IMG/VR virus record: IMGVR_UViG_2703718818_000014
Location: 1 to 11,010 of that record
Reading direction: 5' to 3' (one strand)
DNA: 11,010 bases
Origin: a virus
Lineage: Duplodnaviria > Heunggongvirae > Uroviricota > Caudoviricetes
Shown here: piece by piece, positions 1 through 10,473 of the stretch
Layout of the letters: every line of letters begins with the position of its first letter
Position numbering within the stretch: position 1 is the stretch's first letter
Program-made: the position numbers and the translations under genes
The notes under the pieces: generated by a model
Told to the model about the DNA's origin: nothing
Seen by the model: only the letters and a program-made list of their open reading frames with translations
Databases searched by the model: none

Positions 1-1242
1 ATGGCGAGAAAAACACCCCCATTAACCACAGTACAGATCAAAGCAGCCAGACCAGCAGAAAAGGAATACACCCTACAGGACGGCGGAGGGCTTTTTCTCC
101 TGATCAAACCGTCCGGATCAAAACTCTGGAGATTTTCCTACTACCGACCATCGGACAAAAAAAGAATATTGCTGAGTTTTGGATCGCTTGATGATGTTTC
201 CCTGGCTGATGCCAGAAAACGCCGTAGCGAGTACAGGGCGTTAATTCGTGCCGGAACTGACCCGCAGGACCACGAGAGGCAAAAAAGAGAGACAGAGGCC
301 CGAAGACAAGGGAACACGTTCGAAAATGTGGCAACAGCATGGTACCAGGTGAAAATCAGCCAGAATCTGGCCCCCAATACGATTAAAGACATCTGGCGAT
401 CGCTGGAAAAATATGTATTCCCGTTCATCGGCAACACGCCAATAGACACCCTGACCGCTCGCAGGTTCGTTGAGGTGCTTACCCCCATCAAGGAACGTGG
501 CAACCTGGAAACACTCAAACGGGTTTTACAGCGCGTTAATGAGGTAATGGATTACGCCGCCAACAGTGGGCTGATTGATGCCAATCCGGCTATGAATGTG
601 CGTAAGGCGTTCCCCTCCCCTGTAAAAAAACATATGCCAACAATCCGCCCCGAACAGCTGCCGGAGCTTATGCAGGCTTTATCAGTATCGGCAACAGAAC
701 GGCAGACCAGATTACTGATTGAATGGCAGTTACTGACCGTAACCCGTCCCGTTGAAGCATCGTCGGCACGCTGGGAAGAAATCGACATGGAAGCGCAACG
801 CTGGACCATACCCGCCGGACGCATGAAGATGCGCCGCGACCACGTTATCCCGCTTTGTGACCAGGCTATGGCAGTGCTGGAGGCTATGAAACCAATCAGC
901 CACCACCGCGATTATGTTTTCCCGAGTCTGAAAGACCCACAGCAGCCGATGAACAGCCAGACCGCTAACGCAGCATTACGACGCATGGGATTCGCTGGCG
1001 TGCTGGTGTCTCATGGATTACGCGCCATATTCAGCACAGCAGCGAACGAAGAAGGCTTTGAGCCGGACGTAATAGAGGCCGCACTTGCCCACGTCGACAC
1101 CAACGAAGTCAGACGGGCATACAACCGGAGCAACTACATAGAAAAACGCATCGTGCTTATGCGCTGGTGGGGCGAATTTGTCGAGGCTGCGGCGACGGGC
1201 GTAACCCTCGCCAGTGGTAAAAGGGGTATCCGAGCCGTTTAG
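1..1242 (+). CDS. int: Tyrosine site-specific integrase, P4 / CP4-57 IntA-like (413 aa)
   Basis: ATG at position 1, 413 codons. N-terminal ...GGGLFLLIKPSGSKLWRFSYY... typical of P4-family integrase arm-binding domains; C-terminal HGLRAIFST and RRAYNRSNY match the catalytic H-x-x-R and tyrosine nucleophile regions. Length equals the CP4-57 IntA class. Confidence 0.93.
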   Translation: MARKTPPLTTVQIKAARPAEKEYTLQDGGGLFLLIKPSGSKLWRFSYYRPSDKKRILLSFGSLDDVSLADARKRRSEYRALIRAGTDPQDHERQKRETEARRQGNTFENVATAWYQVKISQNLAPNTIKDIWRSLEKYVFPFIGNTPIDTLTARRFVEVLTPIKERGNLETLKRVLQRVNEVMDYAANSGLIDANPAMNVRKAFPSPVKKHMPTIRPEQLPELMQALSVSATERQTRLLIEWQLLTVTRPVEASSARWEEIDMEAQRWTIPAGRMKMRRDHVIPLCDQAMAVLEAMKPISHHRDYVFPSLKDPQQPMNSQTANAALRRMGFAGVLVSHGLRAIFSTAANEEGFEPDVIEAALAHVDTNEVRRAYNRSNYIEKRIVLMRWWGEFVEAAATGVTLASGKRGIRAV

Positions 1243-1264
1243 CTGTACAGAAAACCAGTAAAAA

Positions 1265-1297
1265 CTACGAAAACCATTTAAAACCGTCGTATAATTG
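1265..1297 (+). promoter_or_regulatory. Candidate sigma70 promoter (perfect -10 TATAAT at 1290-1295, weak -35)
   Basis: TATAAT hexamer at 1290-1295 in the int/alpA intergenic region; no convincing TTGACA-like -35 at 17 bp spacing, so weak. Confidence 0.25.
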
Positions 1298-1319
1298 CAT
1301 CACATTTAACGACGAGGCC

Positions 1320-1571
1320 TTGAAAAATGAAACTGTTAAGATGCAAACAAATTTCAGATGCAATTGCGACGGGCTGCAACTGGCCCTGATGGTTCAGCAT
1401 GAATTTTGGTCAACCTACGATCCGGAGGACAGAACGACGGCCCCATCAAAAAAACAGGTAGTAGATTTCCTGGTATCCCGTGGGGCTTCCAGAAATCTGG
1501 CTGTAAGTATTGATAAGGTTGTACGTCCGGCATCCATGAAGACCGGAGGCAGGCCAAAAAAATGGCGGTAA
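1320..1571 (+). CDS. Hypothetical small protein (83 aa from TTG 1320; first ATG at 1341)
   Basis: ORF ends 8 nt before a strong intrinsic terminator; no clear Shine-Dalgarno and no recognisable family, so the call is tentative. Confidence 0.3.
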   Translation: MKNETVKMQTNFRCNCDGLQLALMVQHEFWSTYDPEDRTTAPSKKQVVDFLVSRGASRNLAVSIDKVVRPASMKTGGRPKKWR

Positions 1572-1581
1572 CAATCCTGAA

Positions 1582-1605
1582 AGCGGCAGAAATGCCGCTT
1601 TTTTT
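1582..1605 (+). terminator. Rho-independent terminator
   Basis: Stem AGCGGCA / TGCCGCT (7 bp), loop GAAA, followed by a run of 7 T. Confidence 0.7.
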
Positions 1606-1633
1606 ATAAATCCCTTTCAAATCATCAATATAA

Positions 1634-1720
1634 AAAACGGTGTATACCGTTTAAAAACGGTGAGTACTGTTTTTCCCTGCATCCGATGATTTACCGTATT
1701 TCTCACCGGAATACACCGGA
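1634..1720. promoter_or_regulatory. Repeat-rich putative operator/promoter region upstream of alpA
   Basis: Direct repeat AAAAACGGTG at 1634-1643 and 1654-1663; palindrome ACGGTgtatACCGT at 1637-1650; direct repeat CACCGGA at 1704-1710 and 1714-1720; all within 100 bp upstream of the alpA start. Confidence 0.3.
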
Positions 1721-1738
1721 TTAATGAGGTAAATCACG

Positions 1739-1945
1739 ATGGAAGCAATCAAAAAAGTCATCTTTCGCCAGGAAGTAAAAAAACTTATCCACATCAAGGC
1801 AGACAGCACGCTTCAAAGCATGATCAACGCCGGAGAATTTCCGCAGGGTTTTCGCGTTGGTTTACGCCGTCGCGGATGGTATGAGGAAGACGTAATCGCA
1901 TGGATGAAAGAACGTGAGCAGGAAGCACGCGGAACGGCTGCGTAA
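1739..1945 (+). CDS. alpA: AlpA / Vis-family prophage transcriptional regulator (excisionase-like HTH), 68 aa
   Basis: ATG with GAGG Shine-Dalgarno 10 nt upstream. The segment MINAGEFPQGFRVGLRRRGWYEEDVIAWM matches the AlpA family signature (AGxFP ... G.R...W...I..W). Confidence 0.85.
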   Translation: MEAIKKVIFRQEVKKLIHIKADSTLQSMINAGEFPQGFRVGLRRRGWYEEDVIAWMKEREQEARGTAA

Positions 1946-2095
1946 TGGTGTGAGGCATAACACGATGAACATAACAAAAAGCGCCCCGTTGCCGGAACGC
2001 CCTTGTGAACAATTAACCTGCTGCGCCTTATGTGTATGTGATCCCAAACATAAGCACGGGAATGATAGCCGCTATCAGGCTGGTGGGCAATGTAA

Positions 2096-2275
2096 TTACC
2101 CTTTGGGTTCTATGCCGCGTTGCTGTAATTCTTTGCGGATTATTCGCTTTATCCAGGCAGCAAGAGAATCATCGCCGTCATGTTGTTGTGCCTTTTCCAT
2201 CTTTTCCCGTAAGTCAGGATCTAAACGGAACTGGAACGGAGGATTACCACGCCTTTCGTTTTTGTGTGTTGACAC
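2096..2275 (-). CDS. Small ribbon-helix-helix (Arc/MetJ-like) DNA-binding protein, paralogue 1 (59 aa, GTG start)
   Basis: My minus-strand translation: MSTHKNERRGNPPFQFRLDPDLREKMEKAQQHDGDDSLAAWIKRIIRKELQQRGIEPKG. Beta-strand / helix A / helix B pattern typical of RHH repressors. Below the length cutoff of the supplied ORF track. Paralogous to the ORF at 2780..2971, sharing start context and the C-terminal RGIEPKG. Confidence 0.45.
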   Translation of the reverse strand: MSTHKNERRGNPPFQFRLDPDLREKMEKAQQHDGDDSLAAWIKRIIRKELQQRGIEPKG

Positions 2276-2343
2276 GTTAATTACACCCCATGTAATGTAT
2301 TTATGTGTAGTGACACATTACAGACAATCAACACAAAAAGCAA

Positions 2344-2374
2344 AGCCCGCTGGAGCTATGAACACCAACGGGCT
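2344..2374. other. Conserved stem-loop A (minus-strand intrinsic-terminator-like; alternatively part of a small regulatory RNA)
   Basis: AGCCCG-c-TGG / CCA-a-CGGGCT stem. On the minus strand the stem is followed by TTTGCTTTTTGTG. Flanks AAAAAGCAAAGCCC ... GGGCTTCTAACC are shared with stem-loop B at 3043-3075, with compensatory changes inside the stem. Confidence 0.4.
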
Positions 2375-2494
2375 TCTAACCAAACCATTAATTGAGGTAA
2401 CGATTATGGCTATAAAAGAGCATAGCTTACTCTTTATACACACACAAACGCCCCGGAAACGGAATAATCCGTTTCATAGTTCGGTTTTGTGCAC

Positions 2495-2722
2495 TCATCC
2501 TGGCGGTCGGTTTTTGCCGGATTTAAGCCGCCGTGGGTATTTATCGACAAAATCTTCAAGGGCAAATTTTTCTGGTGGCACTAAGCGCGGCGCTGGTGGT
2601 GGTATTTTTGTTCTGGTTAGTTCTTCCTCAAGTCTGGCGCAGGCTTCTGACTGCCTTTGCCGGATGATTTCATCATCTTGCGTTTGCGTGTCTTGTATTG
2701 GTGATAGTGTGTTGTTGGTCAT
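2495..2722 (-). CDS. Hypothetical protein (75 aa)
   Basis: ATG start with AGGG 9 nt upstream; hydrophilic non-repetitive sequence; lies downstream of RHH paralogue 2 on the same strand and upstream of the minus-strand terminator-like stem-loop A. No family recognised. Confidence 0.35.
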   Translation of the reverse strand: MTNNTLSPIQDTQTQDDEIIRQRQSEACARLEEELTRTKIPPPAPRLVPPEKFALEDFVDKYPRRLKSGKNRPPG

Positions 2723-2779
2723 GATACTGCCCTGTAAAGCAATGCGCCGGAGTACCTCACACCACGGCGCTGATAGTTT

Positions 2780-2971
2780 TTATCCTTTGGGTTCTATACC
2801 GCGCCGCTTTAGTTCAGTGCGCCCCAACTCTTTAAGCCAGTTGGCTAGGCTTATGCCGTCGCTCTGTGCTTCTTTATCGAATTGCTCTTTTAGCTCTGGA
2901 GAAATTCGCATTCTGAATTGTGGGGATTGCCCGTCCCCTTTAGGGCTTTTATCGCGTTTGATTGTTGACAA
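2780..2971 (-). CDS. Small ribbon-helix-helix (Arc/MetJ-like) DNA-binding protein, paralogue 2 (63 aa from TTG 2971; alternative ATG at 2911 gives 43 aa)
   Basis: Translation ...STIKRDKSPKGDGQSPQFRMRISPELKEQFDKEAQSDGISLANWLKELGRTELKRRGIEPKG, collinear with paralogue 1 including N-terminal (M)ST.K. AGGTGA lies 4 nt upstream of the TTG. Confidence 0.45.
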   Translation of the reverse strand: MSTIKRDKSPKGDGQSPQFRMRISPELKEQFDKEAQSDGISLANWLKELGRTELKRRGIEPKG

Positions 2972-2972
2972 G

Positions 2973-3013
2973 TGGTCACCTATTGAATTAGCCTTTCTAT
3001 TGTTAGGTGACCA
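2973..3013. promoter_or_regulatory. 10-bp inverted repeat, candidate operator (TGGTCACCTA ... TAGGTGACCA)
   Basis: Perfect 10-bp inverted repeat at 2973-2982 and 3004-3013 between the RHH paralogue 2 start and stem-loop B. The analogous position in module A has a different inverted repeat (TGTAATGT 2291-2298 / ACATTACA 2315-2322). Confidence 0.35.
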
Positions 3014-3042
3014 CCTTAACACAAGAGCACTTAAAAAAGCAA

Positions 3043-3075
3043 AGCCCCGCAAGTGTCATTACCACTCGCAGGGCT
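3043..3075. other. Conserved stem-loop B (paralogue of stem-loop A)
   Basis: AGCCC-c-GCAAGTG / CACTCGC-a-GGGCT. Same flanking sequence as stem-loop A; on the minus strand followed by TTTGCTTTTTT. Confidence 0.4.
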
Positions 3076-3105
3076 TCTAACCAACAACGTAAACTAGGAG
3101 CCGTT

Positions 3106-3663
3106 ATGGTTGCTGTAAATCATATACCACACCTTGTACACACACAAACGGCCTTTGTGTGGCGTTTTCTGGCCCTGAATATCGGAGAAAAAAACCAGTT
3201 GATCGCCAGTGTCGAAAATAGCTATGATTCCCGCGCACCTCATAAAACGGGTGCCGGGATTGGCGTCCTGGGCAAAACTGAAGCGCATAACACGCGCCCC
3301 GCGTGTTTTTTTGTGCCGCATAGTCACACCTTATCAATGGTGGGCTGTACGGGGGCGGAGCAATCCGCGCCGGTTTCTTCAGTGTCCGGTTACGCCAACC
3401 CTGTACAGTCCGCCACCAGCGAAATTGGCGTTTCCGGTGGCGGTTATCTTAACCACACTGAGGAGGCTGCCAACATGGCTACTATCCCTACCCTTGTACA
3501 TTCTCAAACCGCCTTTCTCTGGCGCTTTATCATCTTTGGCGCGTCAGAACATCAAATCATCCACGTAACCGCCTGGACGGAACGCGAAGCGCGTAACCGT
3601 TGCCCGTCAGGTTGTGTTGCTGTATTTGCCGCTCGTATTCGTCAGGGGTCACATCATGCGTAA
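3106..3663 (+). CDS. Tandem small-protein paralogue units B1 and B2 in one open frame (possible Icd-like proteins); B2 may initiate independently at 3475
   Basis: ATG 3106 with AGGAG 5 nt upstream. An internal ATG at 3475 has GAGGAGG 9 nt upstream and encodes MATIPTLVHSQTAFLWRFIIFGASEHQIIHVTAWTEREARNRCPSGCVAVFAARIRQG. B1 begins MVAVNHIPHLVHTQTAFVWRF..., and the frame stays open from 3106 to 3663 across an internal terminator-like hairpin. Family assignment is from memory of the motif only. Confidence 0.4.
   Translation: MVAVNHIPHLVHTQTAFVWRFLALNIGEKNQLIASVENSYDSRAPHKTGAGIGVLGKTEAHNTRPACFFVPHSHTLSMVGCTGAEQSAPVSSVSGYANPVQSATSEIGVSGGGYLNHTEEAANMATIPTLVHSQTAFLWRFIIFGASEHQIIHVTAWTEREARNRCPSGCVAVFAARIRQGSHHA
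3289..3312 (+). terminator. Intrinsic terminator / attenuator inside the B1-B2 leader
   Basis: Stem AACACGCG / CGCGTGTT with a short loop, followed by a T run (GTTTTTTTG). Confidence 0.5.
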
Positions 3664-3949
3664 AAACCGCTTGCAAAAAATTATCACGGGGCTGTATGCT
3701 TCCCCCGTCGCCCACATGGCGACCGGGTTTGACAGCCTGAATAAATTGGCGGACAGCCGCCCATATCCGATAAGCGGTTTTTTTGTGTCCGTAAACCTAC
3801 CCATACCCGCATTATGGCGGGGCGTAACGGGGGAGCCTTTGCGCTCGCTGGTTTCCCAATTTGCCAGTCTGTCAACCCTGTTACGTCTCGCCACCATGTT
3901 TGACAGCGTAGTAGCGAGACTCCTTAACATTAAATTGGGAGCCTTTCAC

Positions 3950-4123
3950 ATGGCTGTATCCGCACGCCCTTACTTTGTCTGGCGCTTTATGCAGTGCCAC
4001 CACAGCAACATTGATGTATTCACCGTTACCGCAGCCACTGAACGCGAAGCCCGCGCCCAGCTGCCGCACGCACATCTGATTCTTGTCGCCCGTATTCGTC
4101 AGGGGAAAACCTATGCACAATAA
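3950..4123 (+). CDS. Small-protein paralogue unit B3 (57 aa; possible Icd-like); frame is open upstream to ATG 3656
   Basis: ATG 3950 with GGGAG 8 nt upstream; MAVSARPYFVWRFMQCHHSNIDVFTVTAATEREARAQLPHAHLILVARIRQGKTYAQ shares F.WRF, TEREAR and ARIRQG with unit B2. The upstream in-frame extension (3656-3949) is homologous to the B1-B2 leader at nucleotide level but in a different reading frame, which argues it is non-coding. Confidence 0.45.
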   Translation: MAVSARPYFVWRFMQCHHSNIDVFTVTAATEREARAQLPHAHLILVARIRQGKTYAQ

Positions 4124-4373
4124 AACCACACCGGACGCAGCAGCCGCCGCGCTCACTACGCTGATGCATGCGCTGATTGATATTTCTGTTATTGCTGACA
4201 GGGCGCATAAGCACGCCACCAGTGAAACAGAATATGCTGGGGCTTTCGTTCCTCATTCGCTGGCGGTTATGCAACTTAGTGCGGATATGGCGCTGAATGA
4301 GGCCAAAGCCATCCTGATTGCTGATTGTGAAAATGGGGGGGGGTTATGCGTGATGATCGTTTTAATTCCCTGA
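4113..4373 (+). CDS. Hypothetical small protein (86 aa)
   Basis: First ATG of the frame, overlapping the stop of unit B3; first gene of a tightly packed run of small ORFs leading into the primase gene. Contains a G9 homopolymer near its 3' end. Confidence 0.4.
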   Translation: MHNKTTPDAAAAALTTLMHALIDISVIADRAHKHATSETEYAGAFVPHSLAVMQLSADMALNEAKAILIADCENGGGLCVMIVLIP

Positions 4374-4567
4374 AACAGGAATTTTCCGGCGTTCCTGATG
4401 ATGCGGTTGATGCGCTTTCGTTAATATCTGAAATTATGCGGGTGGCTTTTTTCTTTCTTTGCACTGATGAGCACAGAGATACAGGGCTAAATATTCTTGA
4501 TATTGCCGCTAACTATGCCGATTTCGTGACAGAAGCTGTTTTAAGAAAAACAACGGACGGGGATTAA
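4346..4567 (+). CDS. Hypothetical small protein (73 aa)
   Basis: ATG 4346 immediately after the G9 run, which doubles as its Shine-Dalgarno; overlaps the preceding ORF by 28 nt. Confidence 0.45.
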   Translation: MRDDRFNSLKQEFSGVPDDAVDALSLISEIMRVAFFFLCTDEHRDTGLNILDIAANYADFVTEAVLRKTTDGD

Positions 4568-4568
4568 T

Positions 4569-4802
4569 ATGCGTGATATTTATCTTGAAACAATAGACCG
4601 CGCATTTCTTGCACTTTCTCACAGTGAAAACATGCTGGAAATATTGCGCATATGGCTTGAAACACTTGGCGACAATGAACGCGACAAACAAAAATCAAGA
4701 ATTGCCACGGCATTAATAACGCTTCTTGAGCCTGTAATAATGGAACTGCAAGAAATAGATCTATTGCACGACAGATATAAAGAACAGCACACCGGAGAAT
4801 AA
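4569..4802 (+). CDS. Hypothetical small protein (77 aa)
   Basis: ATG 2 nt after the previous stop, preceded by GGACGGGGA; acidic helical-looking sequence. Confidence 0.5.
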   Translation: MRDIYLETIDRAFLALSHSENMLEILRIWLETLGDNERDKQKSRIATALITLLEPVIMELQEIDLLHDRYKEQHTGE

Positions 4803-4807
4803 AAATA

Positions 4808-5107
4808 ATGAAACTTAAATATTCTGGCTTAACTGCCAGTGGCAACACTCACCCTAAATTTACGCGCGGTGATATTTACCGCGACCAGTACGGCGGCACG
4901 GTAATGATTAAGGGCGTGGAAGAACGGCGTGTAACCTACCGCCGTGAAGGTTACGAATATGATTGCGTGATGCCTGTTTATCAGTTCCGGCGTGATTTTT
5001 CTCTGGTACAGACCGCGCCGCATAACGTGCCCACCAGCAACGCCAGGGCACGGGCAAACATCCAGAAGCTGAAAACCATGATTAACGGATTCAGGGGTAA
5101 AAAATGA
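4808..5107 (+). CDS. Hypothetical small protein (99 aa), translationally coupled to the primase gene
   Basis: ATG 4808 with GGAGA upstream; its stop overlaps the primase start in an ATGA arrangement. Resembles from memory small conserved proteins found beside primase genes in P4-like islands (unverified). Confidence 0.5.
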   Translation: MKLKYSGLTASGNTHPKFTRGDIYRDQYGGTVMIKGVEERRVTYRREGYEYDCVMPVYQFRRDFSLVQTAPHNVPTSNARARANIQKLKTMINGFRGKK

Positions 5108-6858
5108 AACTGGCACCGAACGTAAAACAGCAGTCACGCGGCATAAAACACAAAGGAACAGAAGTCATTATTTTTGCGGGTAGTGATGCCTGGGCACACG
5201 CGAAACAATGGCAGGAACATGATGCGCGTATGGCCGGAGATAATGAGCCTCCTGTGTGGCTTGGGGAGCAGCAGTTATCAGAGCTGGATAAGCTGCAAAT
5301 TGTGCCGGAAGGCAGAAAATCCGTGCGCATATTCAGGGCCGGATATCTTGCGCCAGTAATGATAAAGGCGATTGGCCAGAAGCTGGCGGCGGCAGGCGTA
5401 CAGGATGCAAATTTTTACCCTGATGGTATGCACGGTCAGAAGGTGGAGAACTGGCGCGAATATCTGGCCCGTGAGCGCCAGAATCTTTCTGATGGTCTGG
5501 TCATTGAGCTTCCGGTAAAGCAAAAGGCGCAACTTTCGCAGATGGCGGACAGTGAGCGCGCGCAGCTGCTTGCCGATCGCTTTGATGGCGTTTGCGTACA
5601 TCCTGAAAGTGAAATCGTTCACGTATGGCGCGGCGGGGTATGGTGTCCGGTCAGCACAATGGAGCTTAGCCGCGAAATGGTGGCGATCTATTCAGAGCAC
5701 AGGGCCACTTTCAGCAAGCGCGTAATCAATAACGCCGTGGAAGCGTTAAAAGTTATTGCCGAACCAATGGGCGAGCCGTCCGGCGATTTGCTGCCGTTCG
5801 CCAATGGTGCGCTTGACCTGAAAACGGGGGAATTTTCCCCGCACACGCCGGAGAACTGGATCACCACGCACAACGGCATTGAGTACACGCCACCAGCACC
5901 AGGGGAGAACATCCGCGATAACGCGCCAAACTTTCATAAATGGCTTGAGCACGCAGCCGGAAAAGACCCGCGCAAGATGATGCGTATATGTGCCGCGCTG
6001 TACATGATTATGGCGAACCGGTACGACTGGCAGATGTTTATTGAGGCCACCGGAGACGGCGGGAGCGGTAAAAGTACATTCACGCACATAGCCAGCCTTC
6101 TGGCAGGGAAACAGAACACGGTAAGCGCTGAAATGACGTCGCTTGATGATGCTGGTGGACGTGCGCAGGTTGTCGGGAGTCGTCTTATCGTCCTGGCTGA
6201 CCAGCCGAAATATACAGGCGAAGGAACGGGCATCAAGAAAATCACGGGCGGTGACCCCGTGGAAATTAACCCGAAATACGAAAAGCGTTTCACGGCTGTA
6301 ATCAGGGCGGTGGTGCTGGCGACCAACAATAACCCGATGATATTCACCGAACGGGCCGGAGGTGTGGCACGTCGTCGCGTGATTTTCCGTTTCGACAATA
6401 TCGTCAGTGAGGCCGAAAAAGACAGGGAGCTACCGGAAAAGATTGCGGCTGAAATCCCTGTCATTATCCGCCGATTGCTGGCGAACTTTACCGACCCTGA
6501 GAAGGCACGGGCTTTACTACTGGAACAGCGTGACGGTGATGAAGCACTGGCAATAAAGCAACAGACGGATCCGGTTATTGAGTTTTGCCAGTTCCTGAAT
6601 TTTCTGGAGGAAGCACGCGGCCTGATGATGGGCGGCGGTGGCGATTCAGTGAAGTACACGACCAGAAACAGCCTTTACCGCGTCTATCTGGCGTTTATGG
6701 CGTACGCAGGCAGGAGCAAACCGCTAAACGTAAATGACTTTGGCAAGGCTATGAAGCCAGCCGCGAAAGTTTACGGACATGAATATATTACGCGGAAAGT
6801 TAAAGGAGTAACGCAGACTAACGCAATAACAACAGACGATTGCGACGCGTTTTTATAA
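5104..6858 (+). CDS. Replication protein: P4-alpha-family primase/helicase C-terminal-type P-loop NTPase (SF3/D5-like), 584 aa
   Basis: Walker A GDGGSGKST, Walker B-like RLIVLADQP and SF3 motif C VVLATNNNP in the C-terminal half; sits directly upstream of an iteron array. Confidence 0.85.
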   Translation: MKLAPNVKQQSRGIKHKGTEVIIFAGSDAWAHAKQWQEHDARMAGDNEPPVWLGEQQLSELDKLQIVPEGRKSVRIFRAGYLAPVMIKAIGQKLAAAGVQDANFYPDGMHGQKVENWREYLARERQNLSDGLVIELPVKQKAQLSQMADSERAQLLADRFDGVCVHPESEIVHVWRGGVWCPVSTMELSREMVAIYSEHRATFSKRVINNAVEALKVIAEPMGEPSGDLLPFANGALDLKTGEFSPHTPENWITTHNGIEYTPPAPGENIRDNAPNFHKWLEHAAGKDPRKMMRICAALYMIMANRYDWQMFIEATGDGGSGKSTFTHIASLLAGKQNTVSAEMTSLDDAGGRAQVVGSRLIVLADQPKYTGEGTGIKKITGGDPVEINPKYEKRFTAVIRAVVLATNNNPMIFTERAGGVARRRVIFRFDNIVSEAEKDRELPEKIAAEIPVIIRRLLANFTDPEKARALLLEQRDGDEALAIKQQTDPVIEFCQFLNFLEEARGLMMGGGGDSVKYTTRNSLYRVYLAFMAYAGRSKPLNVNDFGKAMKPAAKVYGHEYITRKVKGVTQTNAITTDDCDAFL

Positions 6859-8048: not shown

Positions 8049-8255
8049 ATGGCTGAAGAGAAAAAAGGCGGTGTTTCGGTGTACATAAGCCCCGAAATCG
8101 TGGAGGTGCTCAAGCAGCGCCACAAAAAAAACTATGAGGCTGGCGTAGCGGCTGGACTGGATCCGCTGATGACGCCGGAGCCGTCGATAGGTTCACTTGT
8201 GCGCTCTTATTTACTTGCGGCGCTTGGGATGCATAAAAATTATGGGGGTGAATAA
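8049..8255 (+). CDS. Hypothetical protein (68 aa), first gene of the capsid operon
   Basis: ATG 8049 with AGAGGA upstream; its stop overlaps the capsid gene start (TAATG). No family recognised. Confidence 0.5.
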   Translation: MAEEKKGGVSVYISPEIVEVLKQRHKKNYEAGVAAGLDPLMTPEPSIGSLVRSYLLAALGMHKNYGGE

Positions 8256-9310
8256 TGACAGGCAAAGCAACGGCACTTAACACTAACCAGCTTTTCATGT
8301 ACCTGAATCGCGGGGATATTGCGGATTTTAAATTCAGCCCTCTGTTTACTACGCTGTTTTTCCCGAACGTGGCGACATTCAGCACGCAAAACATCATGCT
8401 GGACACCCTGGACATTGAAGAGGTTACGATGTCGGCGTTTTGTTCGCCTATGGTGGGTAGTCAGGTCCAGCGCGATAAAGGGTACGAAACCAGCACGATT
8501 AAACCTGGATACATGAAGCCGAAGCACGAAATCGATCCAACGAAAACCATCATGCGCATGGCCGGAGAAGATCCGGCACAGCTTAACGACCCTACCTATC
8601 GCCGTATGCGCCTGATTACTGGCAATATGCGCCGCCAGGTAAACGCCATAAAAGCGCGCGTGGAATGGCTGGCGGTAAATGCGGTAACGACCGGAAAAAA
8701 CATCATTGAGGGCGAAGGCATAGAACGCTATGAAATCGACTGGAAGATACCGGAAAAAAACATCATAGAGCAGGCCGACGGTAAAAAATGGTCTGAGCAG
8801 GATAAAGACATACACGACCCAATATATGACATTGAACTATACGCAGATCAGGCAGGTTGCCCCGCCAACGTCATGATTATGGGCGTTGATGTATGGCGCA
8901 TGTTACGCAGCTTTAAAAAATTCCGTGAACTGTACGATCTCTCCCGTGGTTCAGAATCCGCCGCAGAGCTGGCATGTAAAAACCTGGGCGAAGTGGTGAG
9001 CTTTAAAGGCTATCTTGGTGATCTGGCCCTTATCGTCTATTCCGGCAAATACACTGACAGCGACGGCACAGAAAAATATTTCCTTGAGCCTGATTTGCTG
9101 GTCCTGGGCAACACCAACAATAAAGGGCTGGTGGCCTATGGTGCGATTATGGAACAGGAAGCGGTAAGAACGGGCGCAACGCAAAACATGTTTTACCCGA
9201 AAAACTGGATTGAAGACGGCGATCCGGCGATTGAGTACGTGCAGACACACAGCGCACCGCAGCCTGTTCCGGCAGATATTCGAAAATTTGTTACCGTCAA
9301 AATTGGTTAA
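8255..9310 (+). CDS. Major capsid protein, phage lambda gpE family (351 aa)
   Basis: Collinear with lambda gpE as I remember it: FKFSPLFTTLFF vs FKFDPLFLRLFF; PGYMKPKHEIDPTKTIMR vs PGYVKPKHEVNPQMTLRR; DPTYRRMRLITGNMR vs DPAYRRRRIIMQNMR; C-terminal YPKNWIEDGDPAIEY vs YPKNWVTTGDPAREF. Length close to gpE (341 aa). Confidence 0.9.
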   Translation: MTGKATALNTNQLFMYLNRGDIADFKFSPLFTTLFFPNVATFSTQNIMLDTLDIEEVTMSAFCSPMVGSQVQRDKGYETSTIKPGYMKPKHEIDPTKTIMRMAGEDPAQLNDPTYRRMRLITGNMRRQVNAIKARVEWLAVNAVTTGKNIIEGEGIERYEIDWKIPEKNIIEQADGKKWSEQDKDIHDPIYDIELYADQAGCPANVMIMGVDVWRMLRSFKKFRELYDLSRGSESAAELACKNLGEVVSFKGYLGDLALIVYSGKYTDSDGTEKYFLEPDLLVLGNTNNKGLVAYGAIMEQEAVRTGATQNMFYPKNWIEDGDPAIEYVQTHSAPQPVPADIRKFVTVKIG

Positions 9311-9930: not shown

Positions 9931-10473
9931 ATGAAATCGCACCTGATGAACAAAAAAAACATGGCGAAAAGCTGCCGTGTAAGTGCGACAGCGTTCGACA
10001 AGTGGGGAGTGACTCCCGTTGAACGTAAAGGCCGTGAGGCGTTTTATGATGTTGCCAGCGTGATAGACAATAGGGTTAACAATGCAATTAGCCAGCTTAC
10101 AAACGACAAAGGCGATATTGATGATGCTGAACTCTTACGAGTCAGGATCAGATTACTGACAGCACAGGCGGAGGCGCAGGAACTTAAAAACGAGCGCGAT
10201 CGCGGTGACGTGATTGATACTGAGTTTTGCCTGTACGCGCTTTCAAAGCTGGCGAGTCAGATTTCATCAATCATGGACAGCCTCCCGCTTAATATGCAAA
10301 GGAGCTTCCCACAGATTCCCCCCGCCATGCTGGACAGGCTTAAAAGGGAAGTGGTTAAAGCCTGTAATGGCAGTGCCAGAGTTGCCGACAACCTCCCACA
10401 GATACTGGCTGATTACTTGAAAGAAACAACCGGAAACGTACCGGAAAAGTTGCTACAGAAGAAAGGCGAGTAA
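9931..10473 (+). CDS. Terminase small subunit, lambda gpNu1 family (180 aa; homologous start may be ATG 9946)
   Basis: C-terminal two-thirds collinear with lambda Nu1: LTAQAEAQELKNERDRGDVIDTEFCLYALSKLASQISSIMDSLPLNMQRSFP vs LTRAQADAQELKNARDSAEVVETAFCTFVLSRIAGEIASILDGLPLSVQRRFP. The N-terminal DNA-binding region is recognisably related but far more divergent. No obvious Shine-Dalgarno at either start. Confidence 0.88.
   Translation: MKSHLMNKKNMAKSCRVSATAFDKWGVTPVERKGREAFYDVASVIDNRVNNAISQLTNDKGDIDDAELLRVRIRLLTAQAEAQELKNERDRGDVIDTEFCLYALSKLASQISSIMDSLPLNMQRSFPQIPPAMLDRLKREVVKACNGSARVADNLPQILADYLKETTGNVPEKLLQKKGE

What the first reader, a model, noticed from the sequence alone, without database searches (positions are those of the whole stretch)
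4335..4343. G9 homopolymer at the overlap of two small ORFs, where one extra G would fuse them
A run of nine G (4335-4343) lies in the 3' part of ORF 4113..4373 and is the only Shine-Dalgarno for ORF 4346..4567. By my reading of the codons, a +1 change in tract length puts the two ORFs in the same frame and yields a fusion protein. Homopolymers of this length are prone to slipped-strand mispairing and to sequencing or assembly error, so this could be a phase-variable or programmed-frameshift junction, or simply a miscalled tract.
Basis: seen in the sequence. Interest (0 to 1): 0.4.

Follow-up and report, generated by a model that had tools for sequence, protein, structure and literature searches.

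The report
Variable poly-G junction between two satellite genes
The nine-G run is real and sits where two small genes of an E. coli phage satellite overlap; its length differs from strain to strain (7 to 11 G), so the two genes are separate in some strains and fused in others, which looks like an ordinary mutational hot spot rather than a programmed device.

Summary

The window is an EcCICFT073-type phage-inducible chromosomal island. The two ORFs lie in its tightly packed early operon, after C4 antisense RNA/Icd-like modules and before DUF4222 and the primase.

- **Length polymorphism.** In 142 homologous loci retrieved without regard to frame, the tract is G7 (33), G8 (61), G9 (29), G10 (5) or G11 (2), with 12 interrupted variants. 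27% are fused.
- **Fast change.** Loci with identical flanks often differ in tract length, so the tract changes much faster than its surroundings. It is nevertheless stable within clones (O157:H7 G7, ST73 G8).
- **Real allele.** The window's exact G9-frame protein occurs on at least 1000 public contigs, so it is not a one-off miscall.
- **Two genes.** More distant relatives encode the two halves as separate ~75-aa proteins, the second starting at this same Met. A G-run serves as its ribosome-binding site.

Best reading: an expanded poly-G Shine-Dalgarno at a translationally coupled junction that acts as a slippage hot spot and is probably near-neutral. Nothing supports programmed frameshifting. 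Adaptive phase variation is untested.

The parts
4335..4343 (+). G9 homopolymer. It encodes Gly-Gly-Gly near the 3' end of ORF1 and is the Shine-Dalgarno-like element for ORF2. Its length is polymorphic (G7-G11) among homologues.
   Evidence: sequence; length survey
4113..4373 (+). ORF1, 86 aa in this G9 allele (tail ...ENGGGLCVMIVLIP*). It matches phrog_5146 and the N-terminal half of phrog_2512; function unknown. Its ATG overlaps the stop of the Icd-like ORF.
4346..4567 (+). ORF2, 73 aa (MRDDRFNSLKQEF...). It matches phrog_24341 and the C-terminal half of phrog_2512; function unknown. Its Met is invariant in fused and split homologues and is residue 1 of stand-alone relatives.
4346..4373 (+). 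28-nt overlap of ORF1 and ORF2 that is specific to the G9 frame. In the commonest G8 allele the overlap is the 8-nt ATGCGTGA.
3614..4123 (+). Icd-like ORF as listed mechanically (the NF033153 domain is at aa 121-163, and the true start is probably internal). Its stop overlaps the ORF1 start.
3235..3898 (+). Regulatory RNA region upstream of the operon: isrK (3235-3311), C4 antisense RNA (3333-3420 and 3810-3898) and C4 target a1b1 (3694-3743).
4569..6858 (+). The downstream genes of the same compact operon: ORF3 (4569-4802, phrog_2196), DUF4222 (4808-5107) and a D5_N/DUF5906 primase-helicase (5104-6858).

Best explanation
The G9 run is an expanded poly-G Shine-Dalgarno and glycine-codon run at the junction of two small, translationally coupled genes. 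They lie in the early operon of an EcCICFT073-type phage-inducible chromosomal island: C4 RNA / Icd-like, then ORF1, ORF2, ORF3, DUF4222 and the primase.

ORF1 and ORF2 are separate genes in origin. The run is a replication-slippage hot spot, so its length drifts between lineages, mostly from G7 to G11. Length modulo 3 decides among three states:
- **G8 or G11:** ORF1 stops at the TGA inside ATGCGTGA. This is the commonest allele, and the same arrangement is seen where ORF2 follows a different gene.
- **G9 or G12:** ORF1 stops 28 nt into ORF2. This is the window's state.
- **G7, G10 or G13:** ORF1 reads through into ORF2 as a 150-152 aa fusion.

In every state the ORF2 Met and the G-rich ribosome-binding site are kept, so both halves should be made. 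The polymorphism is therefore probably close to neutral.

Shown: the tract, the frames, the polymorphism, its speed relative to the flanks, and the stand-alone relatives. Inferred: slipped-strand mispairing as the cause, use of the run as a Shine-Dalgarno, translational coupling, and near-neutrality.
For: 1. **Length survey without regard to frame.** An exact DNA pattern with a variable gap found 89 viral-contig and 53 metagenome loci. Tract alleles were G7 33, G8 61, G9 29, G10 5 and G11 2, plus 12 interrupted alleles. Overall 27% are fused, 50% are in the G8 frame and 23% in the G9 frame. After collapsing to 106 distinct flank-haplotype/allele combinations the counts are 25, 54 and 27. The distribution has one peak at 8 and shows no 3-nt periodicity.
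2. **Speed.** Of 18 groups of loci with identical 230+230 nt flanks, 8 contain more than one tract length. Among pairs with zero differences in 420 flanking nt, 32% differ in tract length. With one or two flank differences the discordance is already at saturation, about 0.67.
3. **Two genes.**
   - Among 62 cluster representatives at 50% identity in 1.84 billion proteins, about 33 match only profile positions up to about 84.
   - Fifteen are 47-78 aa proteins whose residue 1 aligns to profile position 79, the Met. Only about 10 span the junction.
   - ORF2 also follows an unrelated 127-aa gene ('caGGGGGGtaaacATGcgtga', same TGA-in-ATGCGTGA coupling; L048). ORF1 is also followed by an unrelated gene (L054).
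4. **ORF2 start conserved.** The Met after the tract is invariant in 20 fused proteins found by protein search.
5. **G-runs as Shine-Dalgarno.** Other junctions in this operon use G4-G6 runs 5-6 nt before the ATG. G-rich tetramers were reported to act as Shine-Dalgarno sequences and drive initiation in E. coli reporters (PMC4066793).
6. **Both states persist.** Exact 65-mers in 5426 complete genomes: G7 350 (O157:H7 strains head the hit list), G8 130 (including Nissle 1917, and ATCC 25922), G9 25 and G10 8. The ST73 islands examined all carry G8.
7. **The window's allele is common.** The exact 86-aa ORF1 is on at least 1000 contigs, next to either a D5-type primase or an AAA_25 helicase.
Against: - A perfect G-run is retained in about 90% of alleles, even where the two protein halves have diverged to 56-62% identity. 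The 40 nt on each side are the best-conserved part of the gene (partly by ascertainment). This could mean selection for mutability or for an RNA-level function, rather than simple Shine-Dalgarno maintenance or a recombination junction.
- No expression data exist. Use of the run as a Shine-Dalgarno, translational coupling and production of both halves in every state are inferences.
- The function of both proteins is unknown (no Pfam or NCBIfam match; PHROGs of unknown function; AlphaFold2 pLDDT 52). Near-neutrality therefore cannot be checked against a phenotype.
- Some length differences between assemblies could be sequencing errors.
Confidence: 0.62

Rival explanations
1. Adaptive phase variation (a contingency locus). 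The tract is maintained because stochastic, reversible switching between split and fused forms, or changes in ORF2 expression, diversify the satellite's behaviour, for example its induction threshold, helper specificity or interference.
For: - The tract is long for E. coli and kept as a perfect run in about 90% of alleles across diverged backbones.
- Its length changes faster than 420 nt of flank.
- All three frames are common.
- The preceding junction in related islands carries an A7/A8 run that also toggles a fusion.
- The location, just downstream of the C4/icd immunity switch, is a plausible regulatory position.
Against: - The tract is stable within clones. The ST73 islands examined are all G8, and 350 complete genomes headed by O157:H7 carry G7.
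- The switch does not turn ORF2 off, because its own ATG and Shine-Dalgarno persist in every allele.
- The length distribution has one peak and no frame periodicity, as pure mutation pressure would give.
- All 12 interrupted, stabilised alleles are in split frames.
- No phenotype is known, and no literature was found.
Confidence: 0.13
2. One gene, broken here. The 150-aa fusion is the functional protein, and the window's G9 allele, like the G8 alleles, is a frameshift pseudogene or loss-of-function variant.
For: - Fused 150-154 aa proteins are numerous and span 73-99% identity.
- G7 is the commonest allele in complete genomes (350 genomes).
- PHROGs has a family for the fused form (phrog_2512).
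Against: - Split alleles are the majority once clonal oversampling is reduced (81 of 106 haplotype-allele combinations).
- Distant relatives are mostly stand-alone halves, with the C-terminal half starting exactly at this Met.
- Each half occurs with other partners.
- Both halves stay intact and conserved in split alleles, and the G9-frame ORF1 is on at least 1000 contigs.
- The well-studied, transferable EcCICFT073 comes from a strain closely related to Nissle and ATCC 25922 (my own knowledge, not checked here), whose islands carry the split G8 allele. CFT073 itself was not fetched.
Confidence: 0.1
3. Recoding. Ribosomal -1 frameshifting on G_GGG_GGG, or RNA polymerase slippage on the G9 run, makes a functional amount of the ORF1-ORF2 fusion from the split allele.
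For: - A homopolymeric heptamer allows perfect tRNA-Gly re-pairing in the -1 frame, and a -1 shift gives exactly the G10 product.
- Low-level compensatory frameshifting on a G-run is documented for herpes simplex thymidine kinase (review PMC5009743).
Against: - The frame relationship is not conserved: G8 alleles would need a +1 shift, G9 a -1 shift and G7 none.
- There is no significant downstream structure (z = 0.08).
- G_GG.G_GG.U gave 0.018% in E. coli without a stimulator (PMC4066793).
- Efficient bacterial transcriptional slippage is documented for runs of 9 A or T, not G (PMC5009743).
Confidence: 0.06
4. Sequencing or assembly error. The true tract in this genome is G8 or G10.
For: - Homopolymers of this length are error-prone on several platforms.
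- One pair of assemblies of the ATCC 25922 lineage differs by one base in an A8 run nearby.
Against: - The exact G9-frame protein is on at least 1000 contigs and in 1719 index blocks from independent assemblies.
- G9 is found in 29 of 142 independently retrieved loci and in 25 complete genomes.
Confidence: 0.05

Closest known systems
Simple-sequence contingency loci (poly-G/C tracts in coding regions of Campylobacter, Neisseria, Haemophilus, Bordetella; homopolymeric tracts in general, PMC2831843, PMC1891110)
   Same: A G-run of 7 or more inside a coding region. Its length differs between near-identical strains and changes the reading frame downstream.
   Different: - The host is mismatch-repair-proficient E. 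coli, and the tract is stable within clones.
- The change does not switch a gene off. It joins or separates two genes, and the second keeps its own start.
- No phenotype or switching rate has been measured.
Translationally coupled overlapping genes in phage early operons (ATGA / TGA-in-ATG junctions), including the P1 immI operon c4-icd-ant
   Same: - The Shine-Dalgarno of the downstream gene lies inside the 3' end of the upstream gene, and stop and start overlap.
- The operon is preceded by C4 antisense RNA, its a1b1 targets and an icd-like ORF, as in P1 immI (P1 organisation from my own knowledge).
   Different: - Here the Shine-Dalgarno is a long pure G-run that is mutationally unstable.
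- The genes after icd are not homologous to P1 ant, as far as tested (no family match).
Herpes simplex virus thymidine kinase G-string (run of 7 G) indel mutants with low-level compensatory frameshifting
   Same: A one-base indel in a G-run shifts the frame, and low-level ribosomal slippage on the run could restore some full-length product (PMC5009743).
   Different: - That is a eukaryotic virus under drug selection, and the out-of-frame product is useless.
- Here the downstream part has its own initiation site, and no frameshifting has been shown.
EcCICFT073-type phage-inducible chromosomal islands (PMC6092414)
   Same: - Gene set: integrase, AlpA-like regulator, primase, lambda-E-like capsid and decoration homologues, terS-like gene.
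- About 93% nucleotide identity over 80% of the window to the island at tRNA-Pro/yejM in Nissle 1917 and ATCC 25922.
   Different: - The window's island is a mosaic variant that is not present as such in 5426 complete genomes.
- The small genes between icd and the primase, including this junction, are not characterised in that paper.

Membership tests
SSR-mediated phase-variable (contingency) locus | Hypermutable simple-sequence tract in a coding region or promoter, with length polymorphism between otherwise identical sequences | tested here: met
   G7-G11 alleles were found. Of 18 identical-flank groups, 8 are polymorphic, and 32% of zero-difference pairs differ in tract length.
SSR-mediated phase-variable (contingency) locus | A tract-length change switches expression of a gene product on or off | tested here: inconclusive
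   The length changes fused versus split and the ORF1 tail. ORF2 keeps its own ATG and Shine-Dalgarno in all alleles. No expression data exist.
SSR-mediated phase-variable (contingency) locus | High-frequency reversible switching within clonal populations | not testable with these tools
   This needs read-level or fluctuation data. Indirectly, the tract is stable in the ST73 islands examined (G8) and in 350 complete genomes headed by O157:H7 (G7).
Programmed -1 ribosomal frameshift site | Slippery heptamer X_XXY_YYZ in the zero frame | tested here: met
   G_GGG_GGG lies at 4337-4343 in the ORF1 frame. This motif class is very inefficient in E. coli (PMC4066793).
Programmed -1 ribosomal frameshift site | Stimulatory RNA structure 5-9 nt downstream, or another conserved stimulator | tested here: not met
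   The fold of 4320-4420 has z = 0.08 against shuffles, and no structure sits at the right spacing.
Programmed -1 ribosomal frameshift site | The frame relationship of the two ORFs is conserved among homologues | tested here: not met
   All three frame relationships are common: 27%, 50% and 23%.
Transcriptional slippage site | Run of about 9 or more A or T, giving heterogeneous mRNA | tested here: not met
   The run is G, not A or T. Documented efficient bacterial cases are A or T runs (PMC5009743). mRNA heterogeneity is not testable here.
Translationally coupled overlapping gene pair | A Shine-Dalgarno-like element within the upstream gene a few nt before the downstream ATG, with the upstream stop overlapping or close to that ATG | tested here: met
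   The sequence is GGGGGGGGG-TT-ATG. The ORF1 stop is 28 nt (G9) or 8 nt (G8) past the ATG. The same coupling is seen with a different upstream gene.
Translationally coupled overlapping gene pair | The downstream ORF exists as an independent gene in relatives | tested here: met
   Fifteen cluster representatives begin at profile position 79, the Met. PHROGs has separate families for each half.
EcCICFT073-type PICI | Integrase, AlpA-type regulator, primase/replicase, and capsid and decoration homologues in an island of about 11 kb | tested here: met
   Supported by the Pfam and PHROG matches, by the annotated homologous islands and by the description of c1499 and c1500 in PMC6092414.
EcCICFT073-type PICI | Helper-phage-dependent induction and transfer | not testable with these tools
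   This is an experimental property.

The most novel reading that the evidence does not exclude
The poly-G run, together with the A7/A8 run at the preceding junction in related islands, is a genuine contingency locus of a phage satellite. Stochastic switching between separate and covalently fused forms of small early proteins, just downstream of the C4/icd immunity switch, would diversify how island lineages respond to helper phages. It would be the first simple-sequence phase-variable locus described in a PICI, and it would operate in mismatch-repair-proficient E. coli.
Probability: 0.1. Interest if true: 0.6.

Novelty: new member of a known kind. Interest (0 to 1): 0.3.

Why it matters
- **Annotation.** These islands are very common in E. 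coli: about 900 of 5426 complete genomes carry this junction. Annotation pipelines alternately call one 150-aa or two ~75-aa hypothetical proteins, and recognising the variable G-run explains that inconsistency.
- **Experiments.** The tract is a natural handle for anyone studying the uncharacterised genes between the immunity region and the replicase of EcCICFT073-type satellites.
- **If functional.** If the split or fused state turned out to change satellite behaviour, it would be a new kind of heritable heterogeneity in phage satellites.
- **As it stands.** It is most likely a mutational hot spot of small consequence.

Tried and rejected
- **Structure of the fused protein.** AlphaFold2 on P0001 with a 22-sequence alignment gave pLDDT 52.5 and pTM 0.41: all helical, with the C-terminal half below 50. 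That is too poor for a fold search, so none was run.
- **Internal paralogy.** I tested whether ORF1, ORF2 and ORF3 are tandem paralogues. hhalign probabilities were about 1% or less, so the idea was rejected.
- **Known families.** Pfam and NCBIfam gave nothing for ORF1, ORF2 or the fusion. PHROGs gave only families of unknown function.
- **Phage genomes.** tblastn of the fusion against 50,697 phage records found no match, so my suspected link to P4 orf151 is not supported.
- **Other species.** The genome-contig scan (one genome per species) gave only two loci, in Shigella flexneri and Escherichia ruysiae. By this scan, the family seems essentially confined to Escherichia and Shigella.
- **Frameshift stimulator.** The RNA fold around the tract is not better than shuffles.
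- **Local signals.** The promoter and terminator scan listed no promoter-like or terminator-like site at or adjacent to the tract.
- **Literature.** Searches on PICIs or prophages together with homopolymers or phase variation found nothing on this locus.
- **Length differences among ST73 islands.** The differences of 1 to 3 nt lie outside the ORF1-ORF2 tract, which is G8 in both. By the shift in annotated gene coordinates they fall in the intergenic stretch after the SSB gene.
- **Minus-strand ORF.** The 4276-4464 ORF across the tract was considered. It is antisense to two supported genes and would be frameshifted by the same polymorphism, so I treated it as spurious.

Full report
**Observation**

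The window has nine consecutive G at 4335-4343, flanked by T and TT, with an ATG at 4346. It is the only G9/C9 run in the 11 kb. Dinucleotide-preserving shuffles expect 0.06 such runs, and 8 of 200 shuffles have one or more.

ORF1 runs from the ATG at 4113 to the stop at 4371-4373 (86 aa). ORF2 runs from 4346 to 4567 (73 aa). Editing the tract in silico gives three outcomes:
- G7, G10 and G13 give a single ORF of 150, 151 and 152 aa.
- G8 and G11 end ORF1 at ...GGGYA*, with the TGA inside ATGCGTGA.
- G6, G9 and G12 end it at ...GGGLCVMIVLIP*.

**Context**

The window is a phage satellite island. Its parts are:
- a tyrosine integrase (1-1242) and an AlpA/excisionase-like regulator (1739-1945);
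- an Arc/HicB-like gene on the minus strand;
- two Icd-like ORFs, then ORF1, ORF2 and ORF3 (4569-4802);
- DUF4222 (4808-5107), a D5_N/DUF5906 primase-helicase (5104-6858) and an SSB;
- a lambda-E-type capsid homologue (8255-9310) and, by comparison with annotated relatives, a decoration homologue and a terS-like gene.

It is about 93% identical over 80% of its length to the island next to tRNA-Pro/yejM in E. coli Nissle 1917 and ATCC 25922. Its gene content matches the description of EcCICFT073, with capsid homologue c1499 and decoration homologue c1500 (PMC6092414).

Rfam finds isrK (3235-3311), two C4 antisense RNAs (3333-3420, 3810-3898) and a C4 target element (3694-3743) upstream of the Icd-like ORFs. 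This is a P1 immI-like c4-icd arrangement (P1 organisation from my own knowledge). From the Icd-like ORF to the primase, the genes overlap or are separated by a few nucleotides, so translational coupling along the operon is likely (inference).

**Homologues: fused and split**
- E. coli OkiPb01698 and W24 have G8 and two annotated genes of 79 and 73 aa. Strain 95-3322 has G7 and one 150-aa gene.
- A protein search with the hypothetical fusion found 495 proteins. The top 120 were almost all full-length fusions of 150, 151, 152 or 154 aa at 73-99% identity.
- All of these carry ...ILIADCEN-G(2-4)-VMRDDRFNSLKQEF..., and the Met after the glycines is invariant.
- PHROGs contains a family for the fusion (phrog_2512) and separate families for each half (phrog_5146, phrog_24341), all of unknown function.

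**Tract-length survey**

To avoid favouring fused forms, I searched public viral and metagenome contigs with a DNA pattern. It fixed 12 nt on the left and 16 nt on the right and left the tract free.

| Allele | Loci (n = 142) |
|---|---|
| G7 | 33 |
| G8 | 61 |
| G9 | 29 |
| G10 | 5 |
| G11 | 2 |
| Interrupted (GGGGGTGG, GGGGTGGG, GGGGTTGG, GGGGGGGGTGG, GGGGAGGGGGGG, GGGGGGGGGGAG) | 12 |

- By frame, 38 loci (27%) are fused, 71 (50%) are in the G8 frame and 33 (23%) in the G9 frame.
- After collapsing to 106 distinct flank-haplotype/allele combinations, the counts are 25, 54 and 27.
- All 12 interrupted alleles are in split frames.
- In 5426 complete E. coli genomes, exact 65-mers spanning the tract occur in 350 genomes for G7 (O157:H7 strains head the hit list), 130 for G8 (including Nissle 1917), 25 for G9 and 8 for G10.

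**Rate relative to the flanks**
- Of 18 groups of loci with identical 230+230 nt flanks, 8 contain more than one tract length.
- Among pairs of loci with no difference in 420 flanking nt, 32% differ in tract length.
- With one or two flank differences, discordance (0.58-0.76) is already at the saturation value of 0.67.

The tract therefore changes at least as fast as all 420 neighbouring sites together. This agrees with the known steep rise of indel rates with homopolymer length, even in repair-proficient E. coli (my own knowledge of mutation-accumulation studies).

The tract is not wildly unstable, however. The five ST73-type islands examined all have G8. Most of the 25 best whole-window matches have the same island length, and 350 complete genomes, with O157:H7 strains at the top of the list, keep G7.

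**Is the window's G9 real?**

The exact 86-aa ORF1, which includes the G9-frame tail, is present on at least 1000 contigs (the counting cap) and in 1719 index blocks. It lies in islands with different upstream genes and with either a D5-type primase or an AAA_25 helicase. So G9 is a common natural allele. An error in this particular assembly cannot be excluded without reads, but it is unlikely.

**One gene or two?**

A profile of the fused protein was scored against 1.84 billion cluster representatives and found only 62 clusters. These split as follows:
- about 33 are 50-135 aa proteins matching only the first half;
- 15 are 47-78 aa proteins whose first residue aligns to profile position 79, the Met after the tract;
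- about 10 span the junction.

ORF2 also occurs behind an unrelated 127-aa gene, with the junction 'caGGGGGGtaaacATGcgtga'. There the upstream stop is the same TGA inside ATGCGTGA as in the G8 allele (L048). In Escherichia ruysiae that other junction has itself expanded to G9 (L085). ORF1 also occurs in front of an unrelated small gene, with 'aatggcGGGGGcgattATG' (L054).

The two halves are thus separable genes. The G-run is the ribosome-binding site of the downstream one, and G8 reproduces the general coupling geometry. The fusion is a derived state that is evidently tolerated.

**Programmed recoding?**
- The frame relationship is not conserved.
- Folding 4320-4420 gives -25.7 kcal/mol against -26.0 ± 3.4 for shuffles (z = 0.08).
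- G_GG.G_GG.U gave the lowest -1 frameshifting of all heptamers tested in E. coli without a stimulator (0.018%). The same study noted that G-rich motifs act as Shine-Dalgarno sequences (PMC4066793).
- Efficient bacterial transcriptional slippage is documented for runs of 9 A or T (PMC5009743).

Low-level slippage cannot be excluded, but nothing points to a programmed event.

**Interpretation**

The G9 run is best read as an expanded poly-G Shine-Dalgarno and glycine run at a coupled gene junction. It behaves as a slipped-strand hot spot. Its length drifts around a mode of 8 with no sign of frame-specific selection, giving split (two geometries) or fused products while always keeping the downstream start. 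I put this at about 0.62.

The rivals are:
- adaptive phase variation (0.13);
- a single gene that is broken here (0.10);
- functional recoding (0.06);
- a miscall (0.05).

What remains unexplained is why a perfect G-run, and the roughly 40 nt around it, are so well conserved across backbones whose flanking protein sequence has diverged to 56-62% identity. Part of this is ascertainment. The rest could reflect Shine-Dalgarno and start-region constraint, a recombination junction between exchangeable modules, or selection for mutability.

**Novelty and interest**

I found no description of this tract. The kind of feature, a hypermutable homopolymer at a gene junction, is well known, so this is a new member of a known kind. 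It has practical value for annotation and modest biological interest unless a phenotype is shown.

Noticed in passing
window 3235-3898: Rfam finds isrK (3235-3311), two full-length C4 antisense RNAs (3333-3420, 3810-3898) and a C4 a1b1 target element (3694-3743). They sit in front of two successive Icd-like ORFs (ending 3663 and 4123). This looks like a tandemly duplicated P1 immI-like c4-icd module at the head of the island's early operon.
   Followed up: partly
L228 3722-3729 (E. coli ATCC 25922) versus L229 (strain 25DN): Two assemblies of the same strain lineage are identical over 11.7 kb except for A8 versus A7 at the junction just upstream of the ORF1-like gene. A7 fuses the upstream 76-aa ORF to it (146 aa, WP_251120848.1). 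Together with G7, this explains the 224-aa triple fusions P0057, P0059 and P0061. It could be a real mutation or an assembly error.
   Followed up: partly
L085 1999-2007 (Escherichia ruysiae): ORF2 is preceded here by a different upstream gene, and the Shine-Dalgarno G-run at that junction is G9. It is G6 in the E. coli loci L048, L050 and L053. G-run expansion at junctions in this operon is therefore recurrent.
   Followed up: no
window 1914-3663: The long mechanical ORFs 1914-3080 (388 aa) and 3007-3663 (218 aa) are not matched by genes annotated in close relatives, apart from the Icd-like C-terminal domain of the second. The region instead holds a minus-strand YlcI/YnfO/Arc-like gene (2780-3052) and RNA genes. 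These long ORFs are probably not real genes.
   Followed up: partly
window 9952-9959 and 8124-8131: There are two A8 runs. The one at 9952-9959 lies eight codons into the terS-like ORF (9931-10473) and is conserved in the ATCC 25922 island. I did not check it for length variation.
   Followed up: no
L234-L241, L001, L242: The identical ORF1-ORF2-ORF3-DUF4222 block sits in front of either a D5-type primase or an AAA_25/RepA helicase. It occurs in islands with either lambda-E-type capsid and decoration genes or a ClpP-protease/capsid fusion (capsid-forming type). The early module is exchanged between satellite backbones.
   Followed up: no
L242 (E. coli O157:H7 PV15-279, island between roxA and phoQ): The O157:H7 island carries the G7 fused allele with a different C-terminus (154 aa, ending ...PEDVSHA) that overlaps the next gene. 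It also carries a PerC-family regulator. G7 is the commonest exact allele in complete genomes (350), and O157:H7 strains head that hit list.
   Followed up: partly
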